DNA of 64,000 nucleotides from Candidatus Planktophila sp. (GTDB taxonomy: Bacteria > Actinomycetota > Actinomycetes > Nanopelagicales > Nanopelagicaceae): contig JBILBC010000001.1 of the NCBI GenBank assembly GCA_044353885.1, positions 2,544 to 66,543 of the forward strand. Reading direction: 5' to 3'. Of the stretch, positions 5,933-64,000 are shown in pieces. A program made the translations under genes and the position numbers. Each line of letters begins with the position of its first letter. Position 1 is the first letter of the stretch. Below the pieces are notes generated by a model, which was not told where the DNA came from, ran no database searches, and saw only the letters and a list, made by a program, of their open reading frames with translations.

Positions 5933-7556
5933 TGAGCTCTTCCGTGCCTCAGGGATTATGGCTATCGGCACGATCCTCTCTCGCATCACAGGATTTATTC
6001 GTGCACTCCTTGCAGTCGCTGTTCTCGGAACGGCGCTGCTTGCAGATACATACAACGTGGCAAACACAATGCCTAATATTTTATATAACTTACTTGTCGG
6101 TGGGGCCCTGACTGCAATCTTTGTTCCTCAATTAGTTCGATCATTTTCTGACGAAGATGGTGGCCATGCATTTGCATCCCGCCTTGTCACAACAATTTCA
6201 GGAATTCTCTTTGCACTCGTTGTTATTGGAGTGATCTTTGCACCCGCTCTCGTGCGCCTCTATGCACCAGAATTTTCAACACCGGGCTTTGAAACTGAGC
6301 AACATATCGCTGTGGCATTTACTCGCTACTGCCTGCCACAGATCTTCTTCCTGGGACTCTTTACGATGCTGGGCCAAGTTGCCAATGCGCGGGGCTCATT
6401 TGCACCTCTTATGTGGGCTCCGATTGCGAACAATCTCGTTGTTATCGCAGTCTTTGCAGCAATTCTTGCTGTGCAGAACGCAATCACCATCGACTCCATT
6501 ACTGATTACCAAGTGCAGTTACTGGGGTGGGGAACGACCCTCGGTGTTGTGATTCAAGCTTTGATTCTTATTCCTGTTGTGAAGCGATCTGGAATTCACC
6601 TGCGCCCGATGTTGGGTGTGAAGGGTCTCGGTAAATCATTTGGGCTTGCTGGTTGGACTTTGGTCTATGTCCTTGTCTCACAGCTTGGTTACTTAGTAAC
6701 GGTCAATGTTGCAACAAGTGCTGCAGTGCGAAGTGCGCAAGCTGGAATAACAACAGGTGTGGGCTTTACTCCTTATACAAGTGCCTACTACATCATGTTA
6801 TTGCCGTATTCGATTGTCACCATCTCTATCGTGACAGCGCTGCTGCCACATCTATCTAAACTTGCAATTGCTAAGAATGTGGAAGGGGTGCGTAAACAAC
6901 TTATTCGCGCTATCCGCATGGTCGGTGTTGTCACTGTGCCGAGCGCAGTTGCGCTACTTCTCTTTGGCCCACTGATGACAGAAGTTCTCTATATGGGAAT
7001 TAGCCTTGAAGATTCTCGCTATATCGGTTTTGTTCTATCGGCGCTGAGCCTGGGCCTCGTTGCATTTTCTATTAACTTAATCCTTATCCGCGGATTTAAT
7101 GCCTTTGAAGATACGAAGACTCAAGTGACTTCCATTGTGATTATCAATGTGATCTCAGTTGGTCTCTCCTATGTATTCCTTGCAACGCTAGATAGTGACT
7201 GGGTAACAGTTGGTTTAGGTATTGCATTTTCTGCAAGTTACATCGTCGGTCTCTTTATTACGATCTCACTGCTGAAGAAGCATGTTGGTAAGTTGCAGAT
7301 CAGTGAATTTGCATCCCAACATGTCCGCCTCTTGGTGGCAGCACTCATAGGAATGCTTCCTTTCTTTGCACTGGCCCAATACTTCGGCTGGGCATATGAA
7401 GAGACAACGCTGACTATTCGCGCACTTCGACTGCTATTTGTTCTGGTGGGAAGTGGTCTGGGTTACTTACTCTGCGCCAAGCTCTTAAAGGTGAGTGAAA
7501 TCGCAGGTCTTAGAGGCTTCGCCACATCTGTTCTGCAACGACGTCGCAAGAAGTAG
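5922..7556 (+). CDS. murJ: Lipid II flippase MurJ (MviN)
   Basis: SRITGFIR, YNVANTMPNILY, GGALTAIFVP, LLPYS; about 14 TM segments. Confidence 0.93.
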   Translation: MKNNELFRASGIMAIGTILSRITGFIRALLAVAVLGTALLADTYNVANTMPNILYNLLVGGALTAIFVPQLVRSFSDEDGGHAFASRLVTTISGILFALVVIGVIFAPALVRLYAPEFSTPGFETEQHIAVAFTRYCLPQIFFLGLFTMLGQVANARGSFAPLMWAPIANNLVVIAVFAAILAVQNAITIDSITDYQVQLLGWGTTLGVVIQALILIPVVKRSGIHLRPMLGVKGLGKSFGLAGWTLVYVLVSQLGYLVTVNVATSAAVRSAQAGITTGVGFTPYTSAYYIMLLPYSIVTISIVTALLPHLSKLAIAKNVEGVRKQLIRAIRMVGVVTVPSAVALLLFGPLMTEVLYMGISLEDSRYIGFVLSALSLGLVAFSINLILIRGFNAFEDTKTQVTSIVIINVISVGLSYVFLATLDSDWVTVGLGIAFSASYIVGLFITISLLKKHVGKLQISEFASQHVRLLVAALIGMLPFFALAQYFGWAYEETTLTIRALRLLFVLVGSGLGYLLCAKLLKVSEIAGLRGFATSVLQRRRKK

Positions 7557-7584: not shown

Positions 7585-8514
7585 ATGAGCACTGAAGTTC
7601 GCGAACTCGTCATTGTTGGATCAGGTCCTGCCGGATATACCGCTGCAATTTATGCAGCGCGTGCGCAGTTAAACCCTGTTATGTATGAAGGCTCTGTCAC
7701 TGCAGGTGGCGCGCTAATGAACACCACTGAGGTAGAGAACTTCCCGGGATTTATCGACGGCATCATGGGTCCAGATCTAATGGATAACATGCGCAAGCAA
7801 TCAAAGCGCTTTGGCACAGAACTTATTACCGATGATGTTGTTGAGATGGATCTGACTGGTGATATCAAGATCATTAAAGATGGTTCAGGAAATACCGTGA
7901 AAGCTAAGGCTGTCATCCTTGCAATGGGCTCTGCTTATCGTGAGATTGGTCTTGAGAACGAGAAGCGTCTATCTGGCCGCGGTGTTTCATGGTGTGCCAC
8001 ATGTGATGGCTTCTTCTTCCGCGATCAAACAATTGCTGTTGTCGGCGGCGGAGACTCTGCAGTTGAGGAAGCAACGTTTCTGACAAAGTTTGCAAGCAAA
8101 GTTGTTCTCATCCACCGCCGCGATTCACTTCGCGCATCAAAGATTATGCAAGAGCGCGCCTTTGCCAATCCGAAGATTGAAATGTTGTGGGATACCGAAG
8201 TCACAGATGTCTTAGGAGCTGAGAAGGTAGAAGCTTTACAGCTTCGTAATCTCAAGACTGGTGAGGTTAGCAAGCGTGATTTCACAGGGCTCTTTGTTGC
8301 AATCGGGCATATTCCGCGCTCTGAACTTGTTACATCTTCTGTAACTCTTAATAGCGAGGGTTACGTACAGGTGGAGGGGCGTTCAACGAAAACAAATCTT
8401 GCAGGAGTCTTTGCTTGTGGCGACTTGGTCGATTACACCTACCGCCAAGCAATTACTGCAGCAGGCTCTGGCTGCCAAGCGGCGCTAGACGCTGAGAAAT
8501 TCTTATCCCACTAG
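7585..8514 (+). CDS. trxB: Thioredoxin reductase
   Basis: GSGPAGYTAA, SWCATCDG, GGGDSAVEE, FACGD. Start set at ATG 7585 (MSTEVRELVIVG). Confidence 0.97.
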   Translation: MSTEVRELVIVGSGPAGYTAAIYAARAQLNPVMYEGSVTAGGALMNTTEVENFPGFIDGIMGPDLMDNMRKQSKRFGTELITDDVVEMDLTGDIKIIKDGSGNTVKAKAVILAMGSAYREIGLENEKRLSGRGVSWCATCDGFFFRDQTIAVVGGGDSAVEEATFLTKFASKVVLIHRRDSLRASKIMQERAFANPKIEMLWDTEVTDVLGAEKVEALQLRNLKTGEVSKRDFTGLFVAIGHIPRSELVTSSVTLNSEGYVQVEGRSTKTNLAGVFACGDLVDYTYRQAITAAGSGCQAALDAEKFLSH

Positions 8515-8563
8515 TAACCTTTGAGCCATAGACTTAATTAACGAAAGATAAATAGGAGTAAAG

Positions 8564-8887
8564 ATGAGCGCACCAACTAAGGTCACAGCAGCTGATTTCG
8601 ATCAGGTCGTCCTCAAGAGCAGCATCCCCGTTTTAGTTGATTTCTGGGCTGAATGGTGTGGACCATGCCGCGCAATCGCTCCCATCCTCGATGACATCGC
8701 AGCAGAGCACGGCGCAAAGCTAAAAATCGTAAAGCTCAACACTGATGAAGAGTCAGCAATCGCTATTAAGTATGGAGTGACATCAATTCCAATGCTTAAT
8801 GTGTATGTCAACGGTGAAGTTGTAAAGACAATCATCGGTGCAAAGCCAAAGCCAGCTCTTCTCAAAGAGCTCGAAGGCTTCATTTAA
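8564..8887 (+). CDS. trxA: Thioredoxin
   Basis: WAEWCGPC active site; SD AGGAG upstream. Confidence 0.97.
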   Translation: MSAPTKVTAADFDQVVLKSSIPVLVDFWAEWCGPCRAIAPILDDIAAEHGAKLKIVKLNTDEESAIAIKYGVTSIPMLNVYVNGEVVKTIIGAKPKPALLKELEGFI

Positions 8888-34646: not shown

Positions 34647-37415
34647 ATGGCAAAAACCTTAAAGACGCTGGTGATTGTTGAGTCCCCTGCGAAAGCACGC
34701 AAAATTGGCGGCTACCTCGGCGATGGTTACATCGTCGAGGCTAGCGTTGGCCATATTCGTGATCTGCCACAGAGAGCAGCTGATATCCCTAAAGAGGTGA
34801 AGAAGCTCGCCTGGTCTAAAGAGGGCGTCGATATTGAAAATGATTTCGCACCTTTATATGTCATCAACCCAGATAAGCGGGCGAAAGTTGCTGAGCTCAA
34901 AGAGTTGATGAAGGGCGCTGATGAGATCCTTCTTGCAACGGATGAGGACCGCGAAGGTGAAGCAATCGCTTGGCACTTAGTTGAAGTACTACAACCAAAG
35001 ATTCCTATTAAGCGCATGGTCTTTAATGAGATTACAGAAGATGCCATCAAGGCAGCGGTTGAAAACACACGAGATCTTGATTACAACCTCATTGATGCAC
35101 AAGAGACTCGTCGCGTATTAGACAGACTCTTTGGTTACCGTCTGTCACCGGTACTGTGGAAGAAAGTAATGCCACGAATTTCAGCAGGGCGCGTGCAATC
35201 TGTTGCAACGCGTCTCATTGTTGAAAAAGAACGCGAACGCATGGCCTTTATCTCATCCTCTTGGTGGGATTTGAATGCAAAGACAGATCTTGGCTTTACC
35301 GCGCGCTTATTGTCAGTAGATGGCAAGAAAGTAGCCTCCACTGCGGACTTTGGAGCAGATGGGGCAGTTAAAGAGAAGTCCCTCAAAGACATCTTGTTAT
35401 TAGATGAAAAACAAGCAAGAGCGCTTACTGAGAGTTTAAAGAACACACCACTAACTGTGAAGTCGATGGAGGAATCCCCTCGCACAGAGCGTCCAAAGCC
35501 ACCTTTTACAACGTCCACAATGCAGCAAGATGCTGGTTCAAGACTTGGGTGGGGCGCGCAGATCACGATGCGTATTGCACAGCGCCTCTATGAAAACGGT
35601 TACATCACCTATATGCGTACTGACTCCATCAACTTATCTGAGCAGGCAATCAAGGCAGCGCGCCAAGCAGCATCTTCCCTCTATGGAAAAGATCATGTCT
35701 ATGAGAGTGCACGTGTTTACCAAGGAAAGTCAAAGAATGCGCAAGAAGCACATGAAGCAATTCGCCCAGCAGGAGATGTCTTTAAGACTCCAGGTGAGTT
35801 AGCGCCAGAGCTCTCTCGAGATGAGTTCGCACTCTTTGACCTCATCTGGAAGCGCACCGTTGCTTCCCAAATGGCTGATGCCAAGAAGATGCAGATGCGC
35901 GTGGACTTTGATGCAAAGACTGCAGATAAGAAAGAGACAATCTTTCGTGCTAACGGTTCTGTGATTATCTTCCCAGGATTCTTGGCCGCCTACGATGACA
36001 TTGCAACGGATGAGAATAAAGATGAAGAATCTGAGGATCGACGATTGCCTGCAATGACTATCGGTCAATCAGTAAAGGTTGATGAGTACTCATGCGAAGG
36101 CCATGAGACTAAGCCTCCTGCGCGCTATACCGAACCAACCCTTGTTAAGAAGTTAGAAGAGCTCGGTATCGGTCGCCCATCAACATTTGCATCCATCATT
36201 CAAACGATTCAAGATCGTGGTTATGTTTCAAAGCGCGGGCGCGCACTAGTTCCAACCTTCCTGGCATTTTCAGTAACAGGCTTACTTGAAACCCACTTCA
36301 CCAAGCTTGTGGACTATGACTTCACAGCATCGATGGAAGAGGACTTAGACAAGATTGCAGCGGGGGAAGCTGGACGTGTCGATTGGCTCCGTGATTTCTA
36401 CTACGGCGTTGATGGTCAACCAGGGCTAAACGAACTATCTCTTGACCTCGGTGTGATTGATGCGAGAGCCACAAACACAATGAATTTATCTGACACGATT
36501 GAAATTCGTGTTGGTCGCTACGGTGCGTACTTACAAGAGAACTTACCGGATGTAGATCGCAAGCTTGCAAATATCCCTGAAGGTTTGGCACCGGATGAGT
36601 TAACACTTGCAAAGGCGATCGAACTACTTGCTGCCCCATCAGGGGAACGCGAACTCGGAGTGGATCCCAAGACAAACTTTGAAGTTGTTGCAAAGTCAGG
36701 ACGCTTTGGTCCATACATCACTGAGATCTTTCCTGAAGAGCCAGTTGAACTCAATGACAAGGGCGAGGTAAAGAAGAAGCGCAAGAAGAAAGATGCACCG
36801 AAGCCAAAGACGGCATCGCTTCTGTCCACAATGAACCTGGATACCATCACACTCGATGATGCACTTCAACTTCTTTCACTACCTCGCTTACTTGGTACCA
36901 ACACTGCAGGAGATGACATCACCGTGCAGAACGGTCGCTATGGTCCCTATCTCAAAGCTGGCGCTGATTCACGCACACTCACATCTGAAGATCAACTCTT
37001 CTCCATCAATCTTGATGAAGCACTTGAGATTTACTCAAAGCCAAAGGAGCGCCGCCGCGGTGTTGCAAAGCCACCACTGAAAGAACTGGGCGCAGATCCT
37101 GGAACTGAAAAACAAGTCATTATTAAGGATGGACGTTTTGGTATGTATGTCACCGATGGTGAAACCAATGCAACGCTTCGTCGTGGTGACACATTAGAGG
37201 CAATGACTCTTGAGCGCGGTCTTGAACTCCTTGCAGGACGCCGTGCGTGGGAGGCCGAGAACGGCCCATCTCCTAAGAAATCACGTAAGAAGGCTGCAAA
37301 GGCAAAGCCGGGCGATACTGCGCCAACTCTGACAAAGAACACAGTGAAGAAGGCTGCAACAAAGAAGAAGGCAGCCAAGAAGGCGTCAGGAAAAGCAAAG
37401 AAGAGCGCAGAGTAG
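34647..37415 (+). CDS. topA: DNA topoisomerase I (actinobacterial type with C-terminal repeats and Lys-rich tail)
   Basis: IVESPAKA, LATDEDREGE, SAGRVQS, ITYMRTDS, AHEAIRP; repeated GRYGPY-like units. Confidence 0.98.
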   Translation: MAKTLKTLVIVESPAKARKIGGYLGDGYIVEASVGHIRDLPQRAADIPKEVKKLAWSKEGVDIENDFAPLYVINPDKRAKVAELKELMKGADEILLATDEDREGEAIAWHLVEVLQPKIPIKRMVFNEITEDAIKAAVENTRDLDYNLIDAQETRRVLDRLFGYRLSPVLWKKVMPRISAGRVQSVATRLIVEKERERMAFISSSWWDLNAKTDLGFTARLLSVDGKKVASTADFGADGAVKEKSLKDILLLDEKQARALTESLKNTPLTVKSMEESPRTERPKPPFTTSTMQQDAGSRLGWGAQITMRIAQRLYENGYITYMRTDSINLSEQAIKAARQAASSLYGKDHVYESARVYQGKSKNAQEAHEAIRPAGDVFKTPGELAPELSRDEFALFDLIWKRTVASQMADAKKMQMRVDFDAKTADKKETIFRANGSVIIFPGFLAAYDDIATDENKDEESEDRRLPAMTIGQSVKVDEYSCEGHETKPPARYTEPTLVKKLEELGIGRPSTFASIIQTIQDRGYVSKRGRALVPTFLAFSVTGLLETHFTKLVDYDFTASMEEDLDKIAAGEAGRVDWLRDFYYGVDGQPGLNELSLDLGVIDARATNTMNLSDTIEIRVGRYGAYLQENLPDVDRKLANIPEGLAPDELTLAKAIELLAAPSGERELGVDPKTNFEVVAKSGRFGPYITEIFPEEPVELNDKGEVKKKRKKKDAPKPKTASLLSTMNLDTITLDDALQLLSLPRLLGTNTAGDDITVQNGRYGPYLKAGADSRTLTSEDQLFSINLDEALEIYSKPKERRRGVAKPPLKELGADPGTEKQVIIKDGRFGMYVTDGETNATLRRGDTLEAMTLERGLELLAGRRAWEAENGPSPKKSRKKAAKAKPGDTAPTLTKNTVKKAATKKKAAKKASGKAKKSAE

Positions 37416-57884: not shown

Positions 57885-58813
57885 TGTGCAATCCTCATTT
57901 CAGAAATCGTGCGTACGAGGCCCTCTTCGATTCCAACTTTAGGCTCCCATTTTAACCAAGACTTTGCGAGCTGAATATCTGGCTTCCGACGGGAAGGGTC
58001 ATCTTCGGGGAGCGGCAAAAATTTGAGTTCAGACTTCGAATTTGTGAGAGTAATTATGAGATTGGCCAAATCAATCATGGATATCTCTGTGGGATTCCCT
58101 AGGTTTACAGGACCAAGTTCGCTCTTTTCTTTCAAAATGATTTGCATAAACCCAGAAATCAAGTCAGAAACATAGCAAAAACTTCGAGTCTGAGTACCTT
58201 CGCCGTAAAGTGTTAAAGCATCTCCGCGAAGTGCTTGAGAAATAAAGTTGCTGACTACGCGTCCATCATCCTTAGACATTCGGGATCCATACGTATTAAA
58301 TATTCTTACAATCGTAGTATTAACCTTGTATTGCTTCCGGAAATCTGAACAAAGTGTTTCAGCGGCACGTTTGCCTTCGTCGTAACAGCTTCGAGGACCA
58401 ATTGGATTAACGTTTCCCCAGTAGTCTTCTTTTTGCGGATGAGTAAGCGGCTCACCATAAATTTCACTTGTAGAAGCTTGAATAAATCGCGCATTGTTTG
58501 CCCTTGCAAGTTCCAAGGCATTAAAAGTTCCCAAGAAATTGGTTAGCAAAGTACCAACAGGATTTAGTTGATATCTAGGAGGAGAAGCCGGGCTCGCCAT
58601 ATTTACGATCACCTCACACTTTATGGAAAATCTCTCTTTCACGTCATGTTCAATAAAAGTAAAATTAGGTTGAGATGTCATTTTCTTTAAATTTTCCGTG
58701 CGACCGGTCGAGAGGTTGTCTACACAGATAACCGAGAAATTCGCATCCAAAAGGGACTCACATAAATGAGAACCCAAAAATCCGGCTCCTCCAAGCACTA
58801 AAACCGTTGTCAT
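57881..58813 (-). CDS. uxs: UDP-glucuronate decarboxylase (UDP-xylose synthase family)
   Basis: [68 protein letters not shown]. Confidence 0.9.
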
Positions 58814-58890
58814 GTCTTAATCCTATATCGCAACTTGGACAAAGCGTTGAATATGGTTGCGGATCCATTCTTCTCATGTATCTTTCAATC

Positions 58891-60318
58891 GTGACCAAGT
58901 TTCCTAATGTCTTAACTCAGCTTCGATTACCCCCTTACACACGGGTTGTGTATACACACCTTGCGTTGCTAATGATTGTTGTTTCTAATTTAATCCAATA
59001 TTTACTCAAGCCTGCCGGATTTAGACAGGGCGATTCTTGGGCATACGGGTTCTCTGGTGAGAGAGATTGGGGTTTGGTTTCATTTACAGGTCACGCTCTT
59101 CGAAAATGGCCGTTAGTACTAGTAAACACAATTTTAGGGAACGTCGAACTACAAGTTTTATTCCAAACCTTGTTTTCTTGTTGCGCTTGGATCTTTTTGG
59201 TTTGTGTGATTTCTAAGTTATATGGTTCAAATAATCTAGCCGTCTTGGCGACTGGAGTCTTAGGATCGATTAAGCAAATTGTAAGCTGGAACTCAATTCA
59301 ACTTTCAGAGTCATGGTCGATATCGAGCTTGATCATGGTTATTGCATTAAGTCTTTCTATTTCATACAAGCGATCTCGTACCAAAATTTTACTACTTCTA
59401 ATGTTTCTTCTCATTACCCTTAACACCAAACCTTCCACTCTACTGGCCCTAGTAGTGTTAATTCCACTTATTTTGCTAGGTATGGCCCTACTGAAACAAA
59501 CTACAAGGCTTCGCAAAAACGAGTCTTTAACATTGGCGATAATCGGAATAGTTGTGTATTCATGCTTTCTAAATGTCAATCAAGCTAACGAGAACCTCCA
59601 AAATGAGGGATCAGGTCAGTCCTATTCGGCTGCTCAAGCAGTAGCGGTTATTTCAAATATCAATCCAGAAGCCAAAAGAGTAATCAGCAAGCTATCCACG
59701 GTGGATGAAATCACCTGCCTTGATATAACTGCGCTCAAGTCTCCTATCGAAATCACTGAATTGATGAAGTTCAAATGCCAGACGTCAGAGAGCTGGCTTA
59801 CCGAGAATTTTGCGAAATGGTATCTCCGCTACCTGATTGAGAATCCCCAATACGTAATGAAGATATTTGCTACTTCCTTAAGCGCAGGCAATTCGCCTTT
59901 TTCCATGTACGCAGGCTCAATAAGTATTGTGCCTACTCCTGTAGAAGGATTGTTCTTCGGTTCCCGAAATTATGCTAATCGCCTGAATCAAGATTCAGCG
60001 CAGAATATTGATGTGGATAAAATTGAAATAACTTCACCACTCTTTGTCTGGATAATCGCAGGATTACTGCTCCTTACTTATTTAACATTTCGTACTCGTT
60101 TCATTAGATCGGATGGCCCAAGGGTTCCAGGGAGTACCTATGGTCTTTTGATCTGTCTTGGCCTTATCACCATTTTAATAAGCGGAGTGTTGATTCCAAA
60201 TGAATGGTTTAGGCAATCCATAGTCGGACAGATAGAAATTTTCGTAGGGACAATTCTTCTCTATGCCGAGTATTCGACAACCAATTCGCTGGATAACACT
60301 CGGACTAAAAATCAATGA
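58891..60318 (+). CDS. Polytopic membrane protein with a large extracytoplasmic loop (GT-C/polymerase-like, unassigned)
   Basis: About 9-11 TM segments, early loop RQGDSWAY, soluble loop ENLQNEG...; GTG 58891 fits a leaderless -10. The ORF-track start (58807) overlaps uxs. Confidence 0.6.
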   Translation: MTKFPNVLTQLRLPPYTRVVYTHLALLMIVVSNLIQYLLKPAGFRQGDSWAYGFSGERDWGLVSFTGHALRKWPLVLVNTILGNVELQVLFQTLFSCCAWIFLVCVISKLYGSNNLAVLATGVLGSIKQIVSWNSIQLSESWSISSLIMVIALSLSISYKRSRTKILLLLMFLLITLNTKPSTLLALVVLIPLILLGMALLKQTTRLRKNESLTLAIIGIVVYSCFLNVNQANENLQNEGSGQSYSAAQAVAVISNINPEAKRVISKLSTVDEITCLDITALKSPIEITELMKFKCQTSESWLTENFAKWYLRYLIENPQYVMKIFATSLSAGNSPFSMYAGSISIVPTPVEGLFFGSRNYANRLNQDSAQNIDVDKIEITSPLFVWIIAGLLLLTYLTFRTRFIRSDGPRVPGSTYGLLICLGLITILISGVLIPNEWFRQSIVGQIEIFVGTILLYAEYSTTNSLDNTRTKNQ

Positions 60319-60366
60319 AGCGCCTTACTATATTATTGGCAGCCATAAATTCTAGAAAGTATTTTG

Positions 60367-61242
60367 ATGCAAGGTAAGAGTCGCCAAAGAAAAGTGGTAA
60401 TCAGATTATATGGCGGATTAGGAAATCAGATTTTCCAATACCTATTCGGCATGCTTTTATCTTCTAAAGATTTGGCTGAAGTATATTTCGATAAAAACTG
60501 GTTAAATAATCAGCCTTCTCATTCCGGATCAGATTTGCGCAATTTTAAATTTACTGAAGAAGTTATGTTTGTTCGAGAGAGAGGTACTTTCGCAATCAAG
60601 TGCGATGAACTACTTACAAGACTAGCAAGAGTTATTAAGCCGCTAAGTAAAATTAGTAGAATCAAGTTTGAATGTTCGTTGGAAGAATTAAATTATGACT
60701 TAACCAAGAAATATTCAAGATTCCGTGGCTACTATCAAGAATTGAACTATCCAGAGAATTTAATTGGCGAATTAAGAAGTATGGACTGGGACCTTGACTG
60801 TTATTCAGAAAGTTTCACAAACATACTTGGCGATCTGCAGAGTAAAAAGTTCATCGCACTACATGTGAGAGGAGGAGATTATCTTTCTATTGGTTCAATT
60901 CACGAAAATCTAGGTACTGAATATTACGAAAAATCACTAAAGTACATAACAAAAGAATTGCCTGAAGCTTCAATTCTGATTTTTACCGACGATAGATTGC
61001 ACGCGCAAGAAGTCCTTCCAGCTAATGAAAAGTTTCAGTATGTCTCTGAGCTCAGTTTAAGCATTTCTGAGGAATTTCTATTGATGTCCAAAGCAAGCGC
61101 TCACATAATTGCCAATTCCACTTTTTCCTACTGGTCTGCGCAACTATCAAGGACCTCCTCGTTTTTTGTTTGCCCGCGAGCTTGGTACAGAGCCCCTGGA
61201 GGGGCTAGGCCAATCTATCCAATAAATTGGGTAGTTATTTGA
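60367..61242 (+). CDS. GT11 alpha-1,2-fucosyltransferase family protein
   Basis: LYGGLGNQIFQY, GYYQ, ALHVRGGDY, IFTDD, IIANSTFSYW. Confidence 0.92.
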   Translation: MQGKSRQRKVVIRLYGGLGNQIFQYLFGMLLSSKDLAEVYFDKNWLNNQPSHSGSDLRNFKFTEEVMFVRERGTFAIKCDELLTRLARVIKPLSKISRIKFECSLEELNYDLTKKYSRFRGYYQELNYPENLIGELRSMDWDLDCYSESFTNILGDLQSKKFIALHVRGGDYLSIGSIHENLGTEYYEKSLKYITKELPEASILIFTDDRLHAQEVLPANEKFQYVSELSLSISEEFLLMSKASAHIIANSTFSYWSAQLSRTSSFFVCPRAWYRAPGGARPIYPINWVVI

Positions 61243-62209
61243 AAGTGCCCAGGCGGTAGTTTTTCCGCAGTTGTTGAAATTTTCGCATTTCAATACCTGT
61301 ACTAAACCACTCGTTTCGATATTGTGAAAGAATTTGTAGGGAAATCTCTGCGCATTTGATTTTATTTCGAGTGTTACTAAATCGATACAATGTGATTAAG
61401 TCTCGCAAGAGTGAGAGAAACCTTTCAGGAGTGCCACTCGAAACACTGTAGATGGAATGTAATCTTGTTGTTTCCTCTTGAATTTTGTCCAGATCCAAGT
61501 TCTGCGAGATTTGAGATTGAAATCTCCTTAAGTTTCGAAGCATCATCTCTTGTGATACCGCACTTATTCCACTTGGGTTAAGCGTGTAATTCAAAAGAGG
61601 TAATGGCAAACTTGCAATTTCAGAATAGCTTGATACCTTCACCCAAAGTGCGAGATCTTCCGTCGGGTAGTGTTCTTCTTGATAGCCTCCCAGCTCTTGA
61701 ATTACAGATTTACGAAAAATCACACTGGGGTGTGGTGTTCTAGAAGATGTTATCAAGGATAGTTTGGTTAAATTCGGCAAAATGGCAGTACGCACGTCTC
61801 CCAAGAACTGTGAGTTCATACCCCTAATTGAATAATCTGAAAATGCGGCTGCAACATTCTGGTTAGTTGACATAAAGTTACTCAACTTTTCAATTCGATT
61901 GGGTGCATAGAAATCATCTATATCTGCACGTGCAACCAGCTCGAAATCACAACATTCGAGACCGTAATTTAAAGTATTGACCAAACCAAAGTGTTGTCTT
62001 GTTCTAAAAACTATTCTGGAATCCCGCTCCGCCGACTTTCTAACCAAGGCGGCTGTATTGTCTGAGGAGCCGTCATCAACAACAACGATCTGATCTATTC
62101 CTCTGGCACTTGAAACTATCGAAGCCAGTCCTTCTAGGATGTGCTTTTCCGCATTGAAGACAGGAACTAAAATCGAGCAAGGTACTGGCTGTGAATTTTC
62201 AAAGGTCAT
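61235..62209 (-). CDS. GT2 glycosyltransferase
   Basis: LVPVFN, VDDGSSDNT, ARADIDD, HPSV, EDLALW. ATG 62209 overlaps the GT6 stop. Confidence 0.9.
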   Translation of the reverse strand: MTFENSQPVPCSILVPVFNAEKHILEGLASIVSSARGIDQIVVVDDGSSDNTAALVRKSAERDSRIVFRTRQHFGLVNTLNYGLECCDFELVARADIDDFYAPNRIEKLSNFMSTNQNVAAAFSDYSIRGMNSQFLGDVRTAILPNLTKLSLITSSRTPHPSVIFRKSVIQELGGYQEEHYPTEDLALWVKVSSYSEIASLPLPLLNYTLNPSGISAVSQEMMLRNLRRFQSQISQNLDLDKIQEETTRLHSIYSVSSGTPERFLSLLRDLITLYRFSNTRNKIKCAEISLQILSQYRNEWFSTGIEMRKFQQLRKNYRLGTFK

Positions 62210-63008
62210 TCCGGGATTCCTTCTTATCAACAGCAATCACAATTGGTGATAACTTTTTAAGTTGTGGATAAGTTGGATCAAAGCAAAGAGCAGGTGGTAC
62301 CAAAGTCACCCGGCCGAAGGCATTAAAGTGATTCAAATGACTCTCATCATGATATTTTGCAATTATTCCTTTATCCAAATCATGATTAGTTGCTCTGCTC
62401 AACTGGCTACACATATTGAAGATTGCGTCACTTTTTCCAAACCAGATACCGCCACAAACGTACGCTTTCCTGAAAGCCCTAGGGACGTAAGCAGTTGAAT
62501 CCCTATTTGTTTCCCATGTGCCTATTGCGCCGAACCTGATTGACAAAACTAGGTCTCTAATTGCATACCTGGGATTTAGCACGTAAAAATGAAGTCTATC
62601 GATACCAGCCTCTCGGTAGAAGCCAGGGTGACGTACAAGCACAAGGGGACTGTCATTTAGAAGCGTCATTATTGAAGATACAAAATCTTTAGAAGTAATC
62701 AACATGTCAGCATCGAGATAAACAAAACTAGAGGTTGAAATATCCTGAAGCGAGTCCAAAATATGTTGATATCGCATTAGTGTGGGATAGGGCCATTCAG
62801 AATGTTGAATTTGTCGGACAATGAGATTCTCTCCCAAAGTGTTCGAAATACGTTCAGGGATTTCGTTCGGCCGATCCGTCAGTAGAAGCCATTTGACGCT
62901 TGGATTTGTTGAACCAGTCGAGAAGTAAGAATCAATGAGATTTACCCAATAGTCAAGGTATTTGCTTGTCGCAATCGAAAATATGGTCAAGCCGCTTAGT
63001 TTATGCAT
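62199..63008 (-). CDS. GT6 family glycosyltransferase (ABO / alpha-1,3-Gal(NAc) transferase family)
   Basis: IATSKY, WPYPTLMRY, YLDADM, HPGFY, E...STAY, YVCGGIWFG, IIAKYHDESHLN, AVDK: all hallmark GT6 blocks in the expected order. Confidence 0.88.
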   Translation of the reverse strand: MHKLSGLTIFSIATSKYLDYWVNLIDSYFSTGSTNPSVKWLLLTDRPNEIPERISNTLGENLIVRQIQHSEWPYPTLMRYQHILDSLQDISTSSFVYLDADMLITSKDFVSSIMTLLNDSPLVLVRHPGFYREAGIDRLHFYVLNPRYAIRDLVLSIRFGAIGTWETNRDSTAYVPRAFRKAYVCGGIWFGKSDAIFNMCSQLSRATNHDLDKGIIAKYHDESHLNHFNAFGRVTLVPPALCFDPTYPQLKKLSPIVIAVDKKESRNDL

Positions 63009-63083
63009 TCACATGAATTCCCTTAAGAAGCTTGCGGTGTGGATAGAATATACACTCCAACCTCTCGGGAAAAGGTAATAGCG

Positions 63084-64000
63084 GTGGCTTTTCGAACTGA
63101 AGATTTGCGGCGCTGCATTAGATTGTTACCGAAACGCGACCGGAGAAAGATCAAGATAGTTATTGCTGCTCAGTTAGCACTCGCTGGTTTAGATCTTCTT
63201 GGCGTCGCTTCGGTTGGTATTTTGGGCGCACTTGCGGTGAGAGGTATTCAATCAGCTGCACCCGGCGATCGAGTTTCAAGCATTCTTCAAATTCTCAATA
63301 TTCAGAATTTGAATTTTCAGCAGCAAGTTATGATTTTGGGCCTGATTGCTGCTGGAGTATTTGTTGTGAGAACAATCGCTTCTGTTTACATAACAAAAAG
63401 GACTTTTGTATTCCTTAGCTACAGAAGCGCTGAGATCTCTTCTGAGCAGATATCAAAAATACTATCTAACCCGAGGTTAATTCTGGAAGAGCTTAACCCC
63501 CAAGAGATTATTTATGCTGCGACATCGGGTGTATCCGCTTTAGTCTTAGGTGTCATAGGTTCTGGGGTGGTATTTATTTCCGATGCAGCCCTATTGATTG
63601 TGATTGCAGTCGGATTATTAGTTGTGGATACATCAATTGCGATAAGCACAATTCTCATTTTTGGAGTTATAGGATATTTTGTATTTAAGCTTCTAAGCAA
63701 CAAGGCACGGCACTTAGGTTCAAGGAACACGCAATTAAACGTTGAAAGCAATAATCTAATTGTAGAACTTTTGGGCGCGTATAGAGAAAACCAAGTGAAA
63801 AGCCGGCAGAAATTCTATTCACTCAAAGTAGGGAAAAAAAGATTTGAACTTGCGGAAGTTATGGCAGAGGTGCAATTTCTTCCAAATATTAGTAAATATG
63901 TAATTGAATCAACTTTGATTATTGGCGCTTTATTTGTGAGCGCAATTCAATTTAGGGCACAGGATGCCTCACACGCTGTAGCTGCATTATCTGTTTTTCT
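63084..64000 (+). CDS. ABC transporter, fused permease/ATPase type, PglK-like glycan flippase candidate (truncated by window end)
   Basis: Not in the ORF track; hand translation from GTG 63084: MAFRTEDLRRCIRLLPKRDRRK...LDLLGVASV...LLGAYRE..V...FLPNISKYVIE, open to the window end. Only the TM domain is visible. Confidence 0.75.
   Translation, partial: MAFRTEDLRRCIRLLPKRDRRKIKIVIAAQLALAGLDLLGVASVGILGALAVRGIQSAAPGDRVSSILQILNIQNLNFQQQVMILGLIAAGVFVVRTIASVYITKRTFVFLSYRSAEISSEQISKILSNPRLILEELNPQEIIYAATSGVSALVLGVIGSGVVFISDAALLIVIAVGLLVVDTSIAISTILIFGVIGYFVFKLLSNKARHLGSRNTQLNVESNNLIVELLGAYRENQVKSRQKFYSLKVGKKRFELAEVMAEVQFLPNISKYVIESTLIIGALFVSAIQFRAQDASHAVAALSVF

What the first reader, a model, noticed from the sequence alone, without database searches (positions are those of the whole stretch)
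62199..63008. GT6 keeps the metal-binding DxD motif, has A-type donor residues and carries a ~25-aa insertion
Seen: YLDADM, HPGFY, YVCGGIWFG, YHDESHLN, and 34 residues between HPGFY and the E...S.AY block. Established: most bacterial GT6s (e.g. BoGT6a) replace DxD with NxN and are metal-independent, whereas vertebrate enzymes keep DxD. In human GTA/GTB, G235 and G268 mark the GalNAc-transferring A form, and the spacer after HPGFY is about 9 residues. Inference: a DxD-type, probably Mn-dependent UDP-GalNAc transferase with a new acceptor or membrane-binding loop, useful for GT6 evolution and glycoengineering.
Basis: partly seen in the sequence, partly recalled or inferred. Interest (0 to 1): 0.7.

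Follow-up and report, generated by a model that had tools for sequence, protein, structure and literature searches.

The report
Blood-group-type sugar transferase with extra helices
A tiny freshwater lake bacterium carries an intact relative of the human blood-group A enzyme, and it is a typical member of a large, unstudied branch of that enzyme family in which a substrate-binding loop is replaced by a positively charged pair of helices.

Summary
ORF 62199-63008 (-) encodes a 269-aa GT6 glycosyltransferase. DAD99-101 aligns with D211-V-D213 of human GTA and N95-A-N97 of BoGT6a. There are 34 residues between HPGFY and E166, against 9 in GTA, so the insertion is 25 aa.

The framing is outdated. 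DxD-type, metal-dependent prokaryotic GT6s have been described since 2012 (cyanophage P-SSM2, Parachlamydia PaGT6). The insertion is also not private to this gene. All 142 alignable top cluster representatives carry DxD, and 127 of them have a 31-35-residue spacer.

In my tree, built without the insertion columns, these proteins form a well-supported clade (SH-aLRT 99). The clade is separate from P-SSM2/Parachlamydia-like, human GTA and NxN/BoGT6a-like enzymes.

AlphaFold models the insertion as two confident helices. They replace the flexible acceptor loop "Loop1". They are cationic (mean +4.5), and the clade lacks the C-terminal basic membrane tail of NxN enzymes.

The donor tripeptide is CGG, which was A-specific (GalNAc) in a published mutagenesis table. 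Relatives carry CGA or HGA.

The host is an acI Nanopelagicaceae bacterium. The gene lies in a conserved ABC exporter-GT6-GT2-GT11 module, and gmd and fcl occur elsewhere in the genome.

Most likely it is a metal-dependent alpha-1,3-GalNAc transferase that makes an A-antigen-like cap. No activity was tested.

The parts
62199..63008 (-). GT6 glycosyltransferase gene, 269 aa. It has no N-terminal transmembrane segment and no C-terminal basic tail.
   Evidence: AF2 model pLDDT 95.3, pTM 0.91. Foldseek TM 0.73/0.83 to BoGT6a 4ayj and 0.75/0.70 to GTA.
62706..62714 (-). D99-A-D101, the DxD metal/UDP-binding motif.
   Evidence: Aligned to GTA D-V-D and BoGT6a N-A-N. D99 is present in all 120 listed homologues and D101 in 119. 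DxD is present in all 142 alignable cluster representatives.
62520..62615 (-). Residues 132-163, which contain the 25-aa insertion. It forms two helices (136-144 and 146-159) and replaces acceptor 'Loop1' of BoGT6a. It is cationic and amphipathic.
62448..62456 (-). C185-G186-G187, the donor-specificity tripeptide, equivalent to GTA L266-G267-G268.
   Evidence: Alignment. Code table gives CGG = A only. Clade counts.
62340..62351 (-). H220-D221-E222-S223. E222 is equivalent to the catalytic Glu (GTA E303, BoGT6a E192).
   Evidence: D221, E222 and S223 are invariant in 121/121 sequences and H220 is His in 103/121. Alignments.
62223..62225 (-). K262, equivalent to BoGT6a K231 and alpha3GT K359, which contact the UDP diphosphate.
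   Evidence: Invariant in 121/121. Alignment. Role taken from PMC3961637.
61235..62236 (-). GT2 glycosyltransferase immediately downstream in the same operon. The real start is probably the ATG at 62209, giving 324 aa.
   Evidence: Pfam PF00535. The 324-aa orthologue is next to the GT6 on the P0002 contig. Conserved next to GT6 in L001, L002, L006. Start codon examined.
60364..61242 (+). GT11-family (alpha-1,2-fucosyltransferase family) gene, convergent with the GT2.
   Evidence: Pfam PF01531, 61.4 bits. A GT11 lies within the flank in 53 of 84 GT6 loci.
63039..63998 (+). N-terminal membrane part of an ABC exporter, cut off by the window and contig end. It is divergent from the GT6.
   Evidence: The orthologue on the P0002 contig is 621 aa with ABC_tran. 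It is 31-50% identical and linked to GT6 in L002, L004, L006, L007.

Best explanation
The gene encodes a cytoplasmic, retaining GT-A glycosyltransferase of CAZy family 6. It belongs to a large, previously uncharacterised DxD-bearing clade found mainly in freshwater Actinomycetota and in lake metagenomes. It most likely binds UDP-GalNAc through a divalent metal held by D99 and D101. It then most likely transfers GalNAc in alpha-1,3 linkage to a galactose that already carries an alpha-1,2-fucose. The adjacent GT2 would add that galactose and the adjacent GT11 the fucose, using GDP-fucose from gmd/fcl. The product would be a blood-group-A-like cap on a lipid-linked cell-surface glycan, which the neighbouring ABC exporter then moves outward. 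The 25-residue insertion replaces the short flexible acceptor loop with a cationic amphipathic helical hairpin. I infer that this hairpin docks the enzyme, acceptor side down, on the anionic membrane or lipid-pyrophosphate carrier. In that role it would stand in for the C-terminal basic-hydrophobic-basic tail of the NxN-type bacterial GT6s. Shown here: family membership, fold, motif positions, clade structure, gene neighbourhood, and charge and tail statistics. Inferred: metal dependence, donor, acceptor, linkage, and the role of the insertion.
For: Family and fold. DxD position and conservation. A DxD-type bacterial GT6 (PaGT6) needs Mg2+/Mn2+ and transfers GalNAc to H-type acceptors (PMC3516806 and PMC3961637). 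Donor: CGG at the 266-268 position was A-only in the code table, and bacterial A genes carry AGG or CGG (PMC5377540). Acceptor: H127, G129, F130, T164, Y183 and E222 match the FAL/H-antigen-binding residues His122, Gly124, Phe125, Thr134, Tyr153 and Glu192 of BoGT6a. A GT11 is adjacent here and in 7 of 11 insertion-clade genome loci. The ABC-GT6-GT2-GT11 module is conserved at 27-50% identity in L002, L004, L006 and L007 and on the P0002 contig. The genome has gmd at 514 bits, above its cut-off, followed by an fcl-like gene at 423 bits; a galE lies in the window. Insertion: two helices at pLDDT 96-98. Net charge is +4.5 on average (n=112), against -3.3 for the rest of the protein, and the helices are amphipathic. 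After DESHLN the clade has only a 42-aa, near-neutral tail. NxN enzymes have a 74-aa tail whose last 25 aa carry +5.4. Other DxD lineages (Moorena, Verrucomicrobiota, Betaproteobacteria) carry different cationic insertions at the same loop. Presence and expression: the locus is in many lake-water metagenomes. Freshwater metatranscriptome contigs cover parts of the gene at 98-99% identity.
Against: No activity was measured. Identity to any characterised GT6 is only ~22%, and the 266-268 code was established in the human scaffold. The same paper reports one discordant bacterial motif. The Trp that stacks on the acceptor (BoGT6a W189, GTA W300) is Tyr here, though it is Trp in most of the clade. 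The strand after the tripeptide reads I-W-F-G rather than F-F/N-G-G, so the donor pocket may differ. The high model confidence of the insertion fits a rigid, packed element as well as a membrane-docking one. I had no model coordinates, so its position relative to the active site rests on the sequence alignment with BoGT6a Loop1. The fcl-like gene is below its equivalog cut-off (423 vs 500 bits). Whether the GalE makes UDP-GalNAc is unknown. No initiating phosphoglycosyl transferase was identified in the module.
Confidence: 0.6

Rival explanations
1. The fold and context are as above, but the enzyme transfers galactose (B-like) or both sugars rather than GalNAc.
For: The enzyme is only ~22% identical to the human scaffold on which the code table was made. 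That paper notes a discordant bacterial motif. The neighbouring strand reads IWFG instead of FFGG/LSGG. The only 4-epimerase seen is a generic GalE, and UDP-Gal is certainly available.
Against: CGG gave GalNAc +++++ and Gal none in the code table, and CGG is one of the two motifs of bacterial A genes. G129 and G187 are both A-type. Clade members carrying CGA or HGA suggest that this position is the one varied to change donor.
Confidence: 0.25
2. The insertion is mainly an acceptor-recognition lid or an oligomerisation surface that gives the clade a different acceptor. It is not a membrane-docking element.
For: It replaces Loop1, which contacts the acceptor in BoGT6a. GT-A hypervariable loops generally encode acceptor specificity (PMC7185993). 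It has very high pLDDT, and D152, Y142, N145-P146 and G160 are conserved.
Against: The fucosyl-acceptor residues and the GT11 partnership are retained, as in clades without the insertion. Positive charge is the conserved property of the variable positions. The insertion and the C-terminal basic tail have complementary distributions.
Confidence: 0.3
3. One reading: this is an exceptional bacterial GT6 that has unusually kept the vertebrate-type DxD, and so has special bearing on the vertebrate-bacteria transfer question.
For: Literature up to 2014 counted only two DxD bacterial GT6s.
Against: DxD is found in 93 of 134 tree rows, from Actinomycetota, Chlamydiota, Dependentiae, Verrucomicrobiota, Cyanobacteriota, Pseudomonadota, Planctomycetota and phages. 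The window's clade is separated from the group that contains human GTA by a 99 SH-aLRT branch.
Confidence: 0.03

Closest known systems
PaGT6 of Parachlamydia acanthamoebae and the cyanophage P-SSM2 GT6 ('clade 1' of Thiyagarajan et al. 2012, PMC3516806)
   Same: Both are prokaryotic, keep the DxD motif and consist of a catalytic domain only, without a C-terminal BHB tail. PaGT6 is metal-dependent and puts GalNAc on H-type acceptors. P-SSM2 also has a GT11 nearby.
   Different: Identity is 25-30%. Those enzymes are ~230-245 aa with a 5-10-residue loop where this one has 33-34 residues. They read (S/T)YE and GGF(Y/N)GG where this clade reads (S/T)WE and GGxW(F/M)G. The tree puts the window's clade on the other side of a 99 SH-aLRT branch.
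BoGT6a of Bacteroides ovatus (PDB 4ayj, 4cj8)
   Same: It is the best structural and sequence match (TM 0.73/0.83; E 4e-37 with the profile). The acceptor residues, catalytic Glu and C-terminal Lys are the same. It is a GalNAc transferase with a small residue-Gly-Gly tripeptide (AGG).
   Different: BoGT6a has NxN and is metal-independent. It has a short Loop1 and a C-terminal basic-hydrophobic-basic membrane tail. It comes from a gut Gram-negative bacterium.
Human blood group A transferase GTA
   Same: Shared features are the DxD, HPGFY with Gly at position 235, Gly at 268, HDESHLN, and the GT-A fold at TM 0.75.
   Different: GTA is a type II Golgi membrane protein with a stem region. It has Leu rather than Cys at 266 and a 9-residue spacer, and identity is ~22%.
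E. coli O86 WbnJ (GT2) - WbnK (GT11) - WbnI (GT6) trio that builds the blood-group-B-like O-unit (my own knowledge; cited within PMC5377540)
   Same: The same three enzyme families are encoded side by side here (GT2 61235-62236, GT11 60364-61242, GT6 62199-63008).
   Different: O86 uses an NxN-type, Gal-transferring GT6 and the Wzx/Wzy route in a Gram-negative. Here the host is a Gram-positive planktonic actinobacterium and the linked exporter is of the ABC type.

Membership tests
CAZy GT6 / Pfam PF03414 | Sequence match above the curated threshold | tested here: met
   55.8 bits against a cut-off of 25, E 4e-15.
CAZy GT6 / Pfam PF03414 | GT-A fold superposable on solved GT6 structures | tested here: met
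   AF2 pLDDT 95.3. Foldseek TM 0.73-0.83 to BoGT6a and 0.70-0.76 to GTA/GTB, probability 1.00.
CAZy GT6 / Pfam PF03414 | Catalytic Glu in the HDES motif and the C-terminal Lys that contacts UDP | tested here: met
   E222 and K262 are aligned and invariant in 121/121 sequences.
CAZy GT6 / Pfam PF03414 | Retaining alpha-1,3 transfer of Gal/GalNAc | not testable with these tools
   Needs an enzyme assay and product NMR or MS.
Metal-dependent (DxD) GT6 | Asp-X-Asp at the position of GTA D211-V-D213 | tested here: met
   D99-A-D101 aligned. Conserved across the clade.
Metal-dependent (DxD) GT6 | Activity requires Mn2+/Mg2+ | not testable with these tools
   Inferred from PaGT6 and vertebrate enzymes.
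Prokaryotic minimal DxD clade (P-SSM2 / PaGT6) | [quoted passage not shown] | tested here: not met
   269 aa against ~231-245 aa, and 25-30% identity. A 99 SH-aLRT branch separates the two groups. The tree is unrooted, so sister-group status cannot be excluded.
Prokaryotic minimal DxD clade (P-SSM2 / PaGT6) | No C-terminal BHB membrane domain | tested here: met
   Only 7 residues follow K262. The clade's tail is 42 aa with about +1 charge, against 74 aa and +5.4 in NxN enzymes.
Bacterial NxN / BHB clade (BoGT6a, WbnI, BgtA); NCBIfam NF041524 | NxN in place of DxD, a C-terminal BHB tail, and a score above the NCBIfam subfamily cut-off | tested here: not met
   The motif is DAD, not NAN. There is no basic tail. 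NF041524 scores 100.6 bits against a cut-off of 250.
A-type (GalNAc) donor specificity | Tripeptide at GTA 266-268 of an A-specific type, and Gly at position 235 | tested here: met
   C185-G186-G187 equals CGG, which is A-only in the code table. G129 is in HPGFY. This is a sequence predictor only, not an activity.
H-antigen-type (Fuc-alpha-1,2-Gal) acceptor use | His and Gly in HPG (Gln and Trp in alpha3GT exclude fucose), plus a linked alpha-1,2-fucosyltransferase and GDP-fucose supply | tested here: met
   H127 and G129 are present. The GT11 is adjacent. gmd and an fcl-like gene are in the genome. The acceptor itself is not testable here.

The most novel reading that the evidence does not exclude
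Streamlined freshwater acI Actinobacteria carry an ABO-like polymorphism of their own. A hypervariable island downstream of topA holds, in different species, GT6 alleles with A-type (CGG), dual (CGA) or B-type (HGA) donor motifs, each next to a fucosyltransferase. Closely related plankton cells would therefore wear different blood-group-like caps, presumably to escape phages or grazers and not to mimic a vertebrate host. These enzymes would form a fourth GT6 lineage that is anchored by a new cationic helical hairpin built into the acceptor loop.
Probability: 0.35. Interest if true: 0.65.

Novelty: new variant of a known kind. Interest (0 to 1): 0.45.

Why it matters
GT6 enzymes are the textbook case of glycan polymorphism (ABO). 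Bacterial members have so far been read as host mimicry by gut or pathogenic Gram-negatives.

This gene shows that a large branch of the family lives in free-living, Gram-positive lake plankton. I found no mention of this branch in the library I could search. It has the DxD motif, its own loop architecture and A/B-like motif variation between close relatives.

If the predictions hold, three things follow. The biology of the family widens from host mimicry towards phage or grazer-driven surface variation. A natural test of how GT6 enzymes attach to membranes becomes available (internal hairpin against C-terminal tail). And there would be new small, soluble, metal-dependent A/B-type transferases for glycan synthesis.

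The specific claim that retaining DxD is remarkable does not matter: that was already known.

Tried and rejected
1. Scanning relatives with Pfam PF03414 found GT6 only in the window's own genome, 1 of 61. That model is too vertebrate-biased: the own gene scores only 38.5 bits in six-frame mode. A profile of the clade (A1) was used instead and found 7 of 151 family genomes.

2. The DNA of the closest named contig (P0002, 84% identity) could not be fetched because the sample file is too large. Only its gene table was usable.

3. My first motif table was shifted by 4 residues because of hmmalign --trim. It was redone, and one search should be ignored.

4. The 80 genome loci are the best-scoring of 345 to a DxD-clade profile. 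The DxD:NxN ratio among them is therefore biased, and I do not use it as a frequency estimate.

5. The review by Brew et al. 2010 (PMC2988317) is not held.

6. The structure tool returns no coordinates. I could not measure where the hairpin sits, compute surface electrostatics or dock substrates.

7. Considered and rejected: a pseudogene or chance ORF, given the conservation, the confident fold and the transcript fragments. Also rejected: recent transfer from a vertebrate or a cyanophage, given 25-30% identity and the separate clade.

8. No paper in the library links Nanopelagicaceae or Planktophila with GT6 or blood-group glycans. This is absence in that library only.
Full report
**1. What is there**

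The minus-strand ORF 62199-63008 is intact and encodes 269 aa. It starts at an ATG preceded by an AAGGGA ribosome-binding-like sequence. Homologues of 84-98% identity have the same length and the same start.

It matches Pfam Glyco_transf_6 at 55.8 bits against a cut-off of 25. Among solved structures it matches only GT6 enzymes. BoGT6a of Bacteroides ovatus is best, followed by human GTA/GTB and bovine alpha3GT. With a profile of 48 homologues the E-values are 4e-37 and 3e-32.

Both the single-sequence and the profile alignments put D99-A-D101 on N95-A-N97 of BoGT6a and on the D-V-D of GTA. HPGFY falls on HPGFY, Y-V-C185-G-G187 on Y-Y-L266-G-G268, and HDES on HDES. K262 falls on K231 of BoGT6a.

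Query residues ~134-161 face only three residues in either structure. The spacer from HPGFY to the Glu is 34 residues here and 9 in GTA. Window coordinates of each element were verified by translation.

**2. Structure**

AlphaFold2, run with the 48-sequence alignment, gives a very confident model: mean pLDDT 95.3 and pTM 0.91.

Foldseek against the PDB returns BoGT6a (TM 0.73 on the query, 0.83 on the target) and GTA/GTB (about 0.75/0.70), all at probability 1.00.

The insertion is modelled as two helices, 136-144 and 146-159, broken at the conserved N145-P146. Its pLDDT is 96-98.

The protein has no N-terminal membrane segment. It ends 7 residues after K262.

**3. The DxD is not the novelty**

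PMC3516806 (2012) and PMC3961637 (2014) already divide GT6 into three clades:
- prokaryotic minimal enzymes with DxD (cyanophage P-SSM2, marine metagenome homologues, Parachlamydia PaGT6);
- vertebrate enzymes;
- bacterial NxN enzymes with a C-terminal basic-hydrophobic-basic (BHB) membrane tail.

PaGT6 was shown there to need Mg2+ or Mn2+ and to transfer GalNAc to H-type acceptors.

In today's data DxD is widespread. It is present in essentially all 120 listed homologues: D99 in 120 of 120, D101 in 119 of 120. It is present in all 142 alignable cluster representatives. It is also present in genome loci from Actinomycetota, Chlamydiota, Dependentiae, Verrucomicrobiota, Cyanobacteriota, Pseudomonadota and Planctomycetota, and in phages. 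Those loci were chosen by similarity to a DxD profile, so their ratio is not a frequency.

**4. The insertion defines a clade**

About 100 of the 120 listed homologues are 257-272 aa long and share the insertion. Within it, Y142, N145-P146, D152 (91%), G160 and G163 are conserved.

An exhaustive HMMER search of 1.84 billion cluster representatives found 1450 GT6 relatives at E<=0.001, of which 166 were at E<=1e-30. Of the best 150, 142 could be aligned at this region and all carry DxD. In 127 the spacer is 31-35 residues. All have Trp in the (S/T)WE motif.

I built a maximum-likelihood tree of 134 sequences with the insertion columns removed. It included human GTA, BoGT6a and four phage enzymes. 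A branch with SH-aLRT 99 separates a 59-row clade that contains the window's protein from the other 75 rows. The 59-row clade holds 8 Actinomycetota, 2 Bacteroidota, 1 Opitutae and 48 metagenome proteins. The other 75 rows hold P-SSM2, the Parachlamydia-like group with GTA, the S-CAM9-type cyanophage group, and the NxN group with BoGT6a. This was a quick search and the tree is unrooted.

Besides the insertion, the clade has three signatures: (S/T)WE instead of (S/T)YE, GGxW(F/M)G instead of GGF(N/Y/F)GG, and an invariant R180.

I found no description of this clade in the paper library.

**5. What the insertion probably does**

By alignment it replaces "Loop1" of BoGT6a (about K128 to T134). 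That loop is flexible, lies between the acceptor ligands His122 and Thr134, and becomes ordered when 2'-fucosyllactose binds (PMC3516806). So the insertion is on the acceptor side of the enzyme.

Across 112 clade members it carries a mean net charge of +4.5 (range +1 to +11), while the rest of the protein averages -3.3. Conserved hydrophobic positions alternate with Lys/Arg positions, giving hydrophobic moments of 0.48 and 0.53.

The tail after DESHLN differs by group:

| Group | Median tail length | Net charge of last 25 residues |
|---|---|---|
| Insertion clade | 42 aa | about +1 |
| NxN enzymes (with BHB) | 74 aa | +5.4 |

Three other DxD lineages carry unrelated but also Arg/Lys-rich insertions at the same loop. 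They are Moorena, a Verrucomicrobiota group and a Betaproteobacteria pair. The tree needs at least three changes of the long/short state.

My inference, not shown, is that the hairpin is an interfacial docking element. It would orient the acceptor site towards the lipid-linked glycan and so stand in for the BHB tail.

A role as an acceptor lid or an oligomer interface is the main rival. GT-A hypervariable loops usually tune acceptor choice (PMC7185993).

**6. Donor and acceptor**

Yamamoto et al. (PMC5377540) put all 20 residues at codon 266, with Gly or Ala at 268, into human A transferase. Three of their results bear on this clade:

| Tripeptide at 266-268 | Activity in the human A-transferase scaffold |
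|---|---|
| CGG | GalNAc +++++, no Gal |
| CGA | both sugars |
| HGA | Gal only |

They also note that bacterial A genes carry AGG or CGG.

The window's tripeptide is CGG, and G129 matches the A-type G235.

The residues linked to a fucosylated acceptor are kept: His and Gly of HPG, Phe130, Thr164, Tyr183 and Glu222. The stacking Trp is Tyr here, though it is Trp in most of the clade.

**7. Context**

The gene sits in a run of five genes:
- ABC exporter (63039 onward, + strand, cut by the contig end);
- GT6;
- GT2 (61235-62236, probably starting at 62209);
- GT11 (60364-61242, + strand);
- a 503-aa polytopic protein with no family match.

The same order is found on the contig of the 84%-identical homologue. 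ABC, GT6, GT2 and GT11 are linked, at 27-50% identity, in four other actinobacterial loci. A GT11 lies within the flank in 53 of 84 GT6 loci, including cyanophages.

The genome has gmd (514 bits, above its cut-off) followed by an fcl-like gene (423 bits). A galE lies in the window.

GT2 plus GT11 plus GT6 is the same enzyme set as WbnJ/WbnK/WbnI, which build the B-like unit of E. coli O86. That comparison rests on my own knowledge.

**8. Host and distribution**

The assembly is 1.30 Mb in 119 contigs and ~90% complete.

Its TopA is 96% identical to that of Candidatus Nanopelagicaceae bacterium TarE-7. The host is therefore an acI-lineage freshwater actinobacterium.

The locus occurs in many lake-water metagenomes. 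Short freshwater metatranscriptome contigs cover parts of the gene at 98-99% identity. This is weak evidence of transcription.

With the clade profile, only 7 of 151 species genomes of the family, in 4 of 18 genera, carry such a GT6. It is therefore an accessory gene of the variable surface-glycan island downstream of topA.

The seven family copies carry CGG (3), CGA (2) and HGA (1); one had no match to my motif pattern. TarE-7, from the same genus, has an HGA-type enzyme that is only 34% identical, at the corresponding place ~18 kb after topA. Across the whole clade the counts among the 142 representatives are CGG 102, CGA 18, AGG 11 and HGA 8.

This pattern suggests A/B-like variation between related plankton. 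It is a sequence-based prediction only.

**9. Verdict**

This is a real gene and a sound observation.

What is new, as far as I could search, is the clade itself. It is a fourth GT6 lineage with a cationic helical hairpin in the acceptor loop. It is centred on free-living freshwater Actinomycetota and shows donor-motif polymorphism. I rate it a new variant of a known kind, of moderate interest.

Noticed in passing
L006 (Ca. Nanopelagicaceae TarE-7, OZ254148.1) 8001-8771; window 34647-37415 for topA: A same-genus relative (TopA 96% identical) carries a GT6 that is only 34% identical. It has the B-type tripeptide HGA and DSD instead of DAD. It lies in the corresponding island ~18 kb downstream of topA, again with GT11, GT2 and an ABC exporter.
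   Followed up: partly
L039 (Moorena bouillonii), L012/L026/L030 (Verrucomicrobiota), L014/L015 (Betaproteobacteria/Pseudomonadota): Other DxD-type GT6 lineages have unrelated Arg/Lys-rich insertions of 18-35 residues at the same HPGF-(S/T)YE loop. This may be convergent acquisition of a cationic element.
   Followed up: partly
L042 (Candidatus Woesearchaeota archaeon MAG, JAHWHN010000001.1) 6392-6973: A GT6 (DxD, tripeptide QGC) lies on a contig binned as an archaeon. The older literature states that GT6 is absent from archaea. Binning error is possible.
   Followed up: no
L091 (uncultured huge phage LR756502.1, 642 kb) 1001-1606: The GT6 domain is the C-terminal half of a ~530-aa ORF. The N-terminal half looks like another glycosyltransferase domain, so this may be a fusion.
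   Followed up: no
window 62199-62236: The listed TTG start of the downstream GT2 (62236) is probably wrong. An ATG at 62209 gives 324 aa, the length of the orthologue on the P0002 contig, and overlaps the GT6 stop region by 11 nt.
   Followed up: yes
window 63009-63038: Only 30 bp separate the divergent start codons of the GT6 and the ABC exporter as listed (GTG start). Either the promoters overlap coding sequence or the ABC start lies further downstream.
   Followed up: no
window 58807-60318: A 503-aa polytopic membrane protein has no Pfam or NCBIfam match. It is conserved in position on the P0002 contig (474 aa). It could be a polymerase, ligase or GT-C-like enzyme of the same glycan pathway.
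   Followed up: no
window 62199-63008 vs NCBIfam NF041524: The NCBIfam model that names bacterial GT6s ('family 6 glucosyltransferase') scores this protein at 100.6 bits against a cut-off of 250. Pfam PF03414 in six-frame genome scans also misses most clade members. The clade is therefore likely to be left as 'hypothetical protein' in annotations, as the JGI names show.
   Followed up: partly
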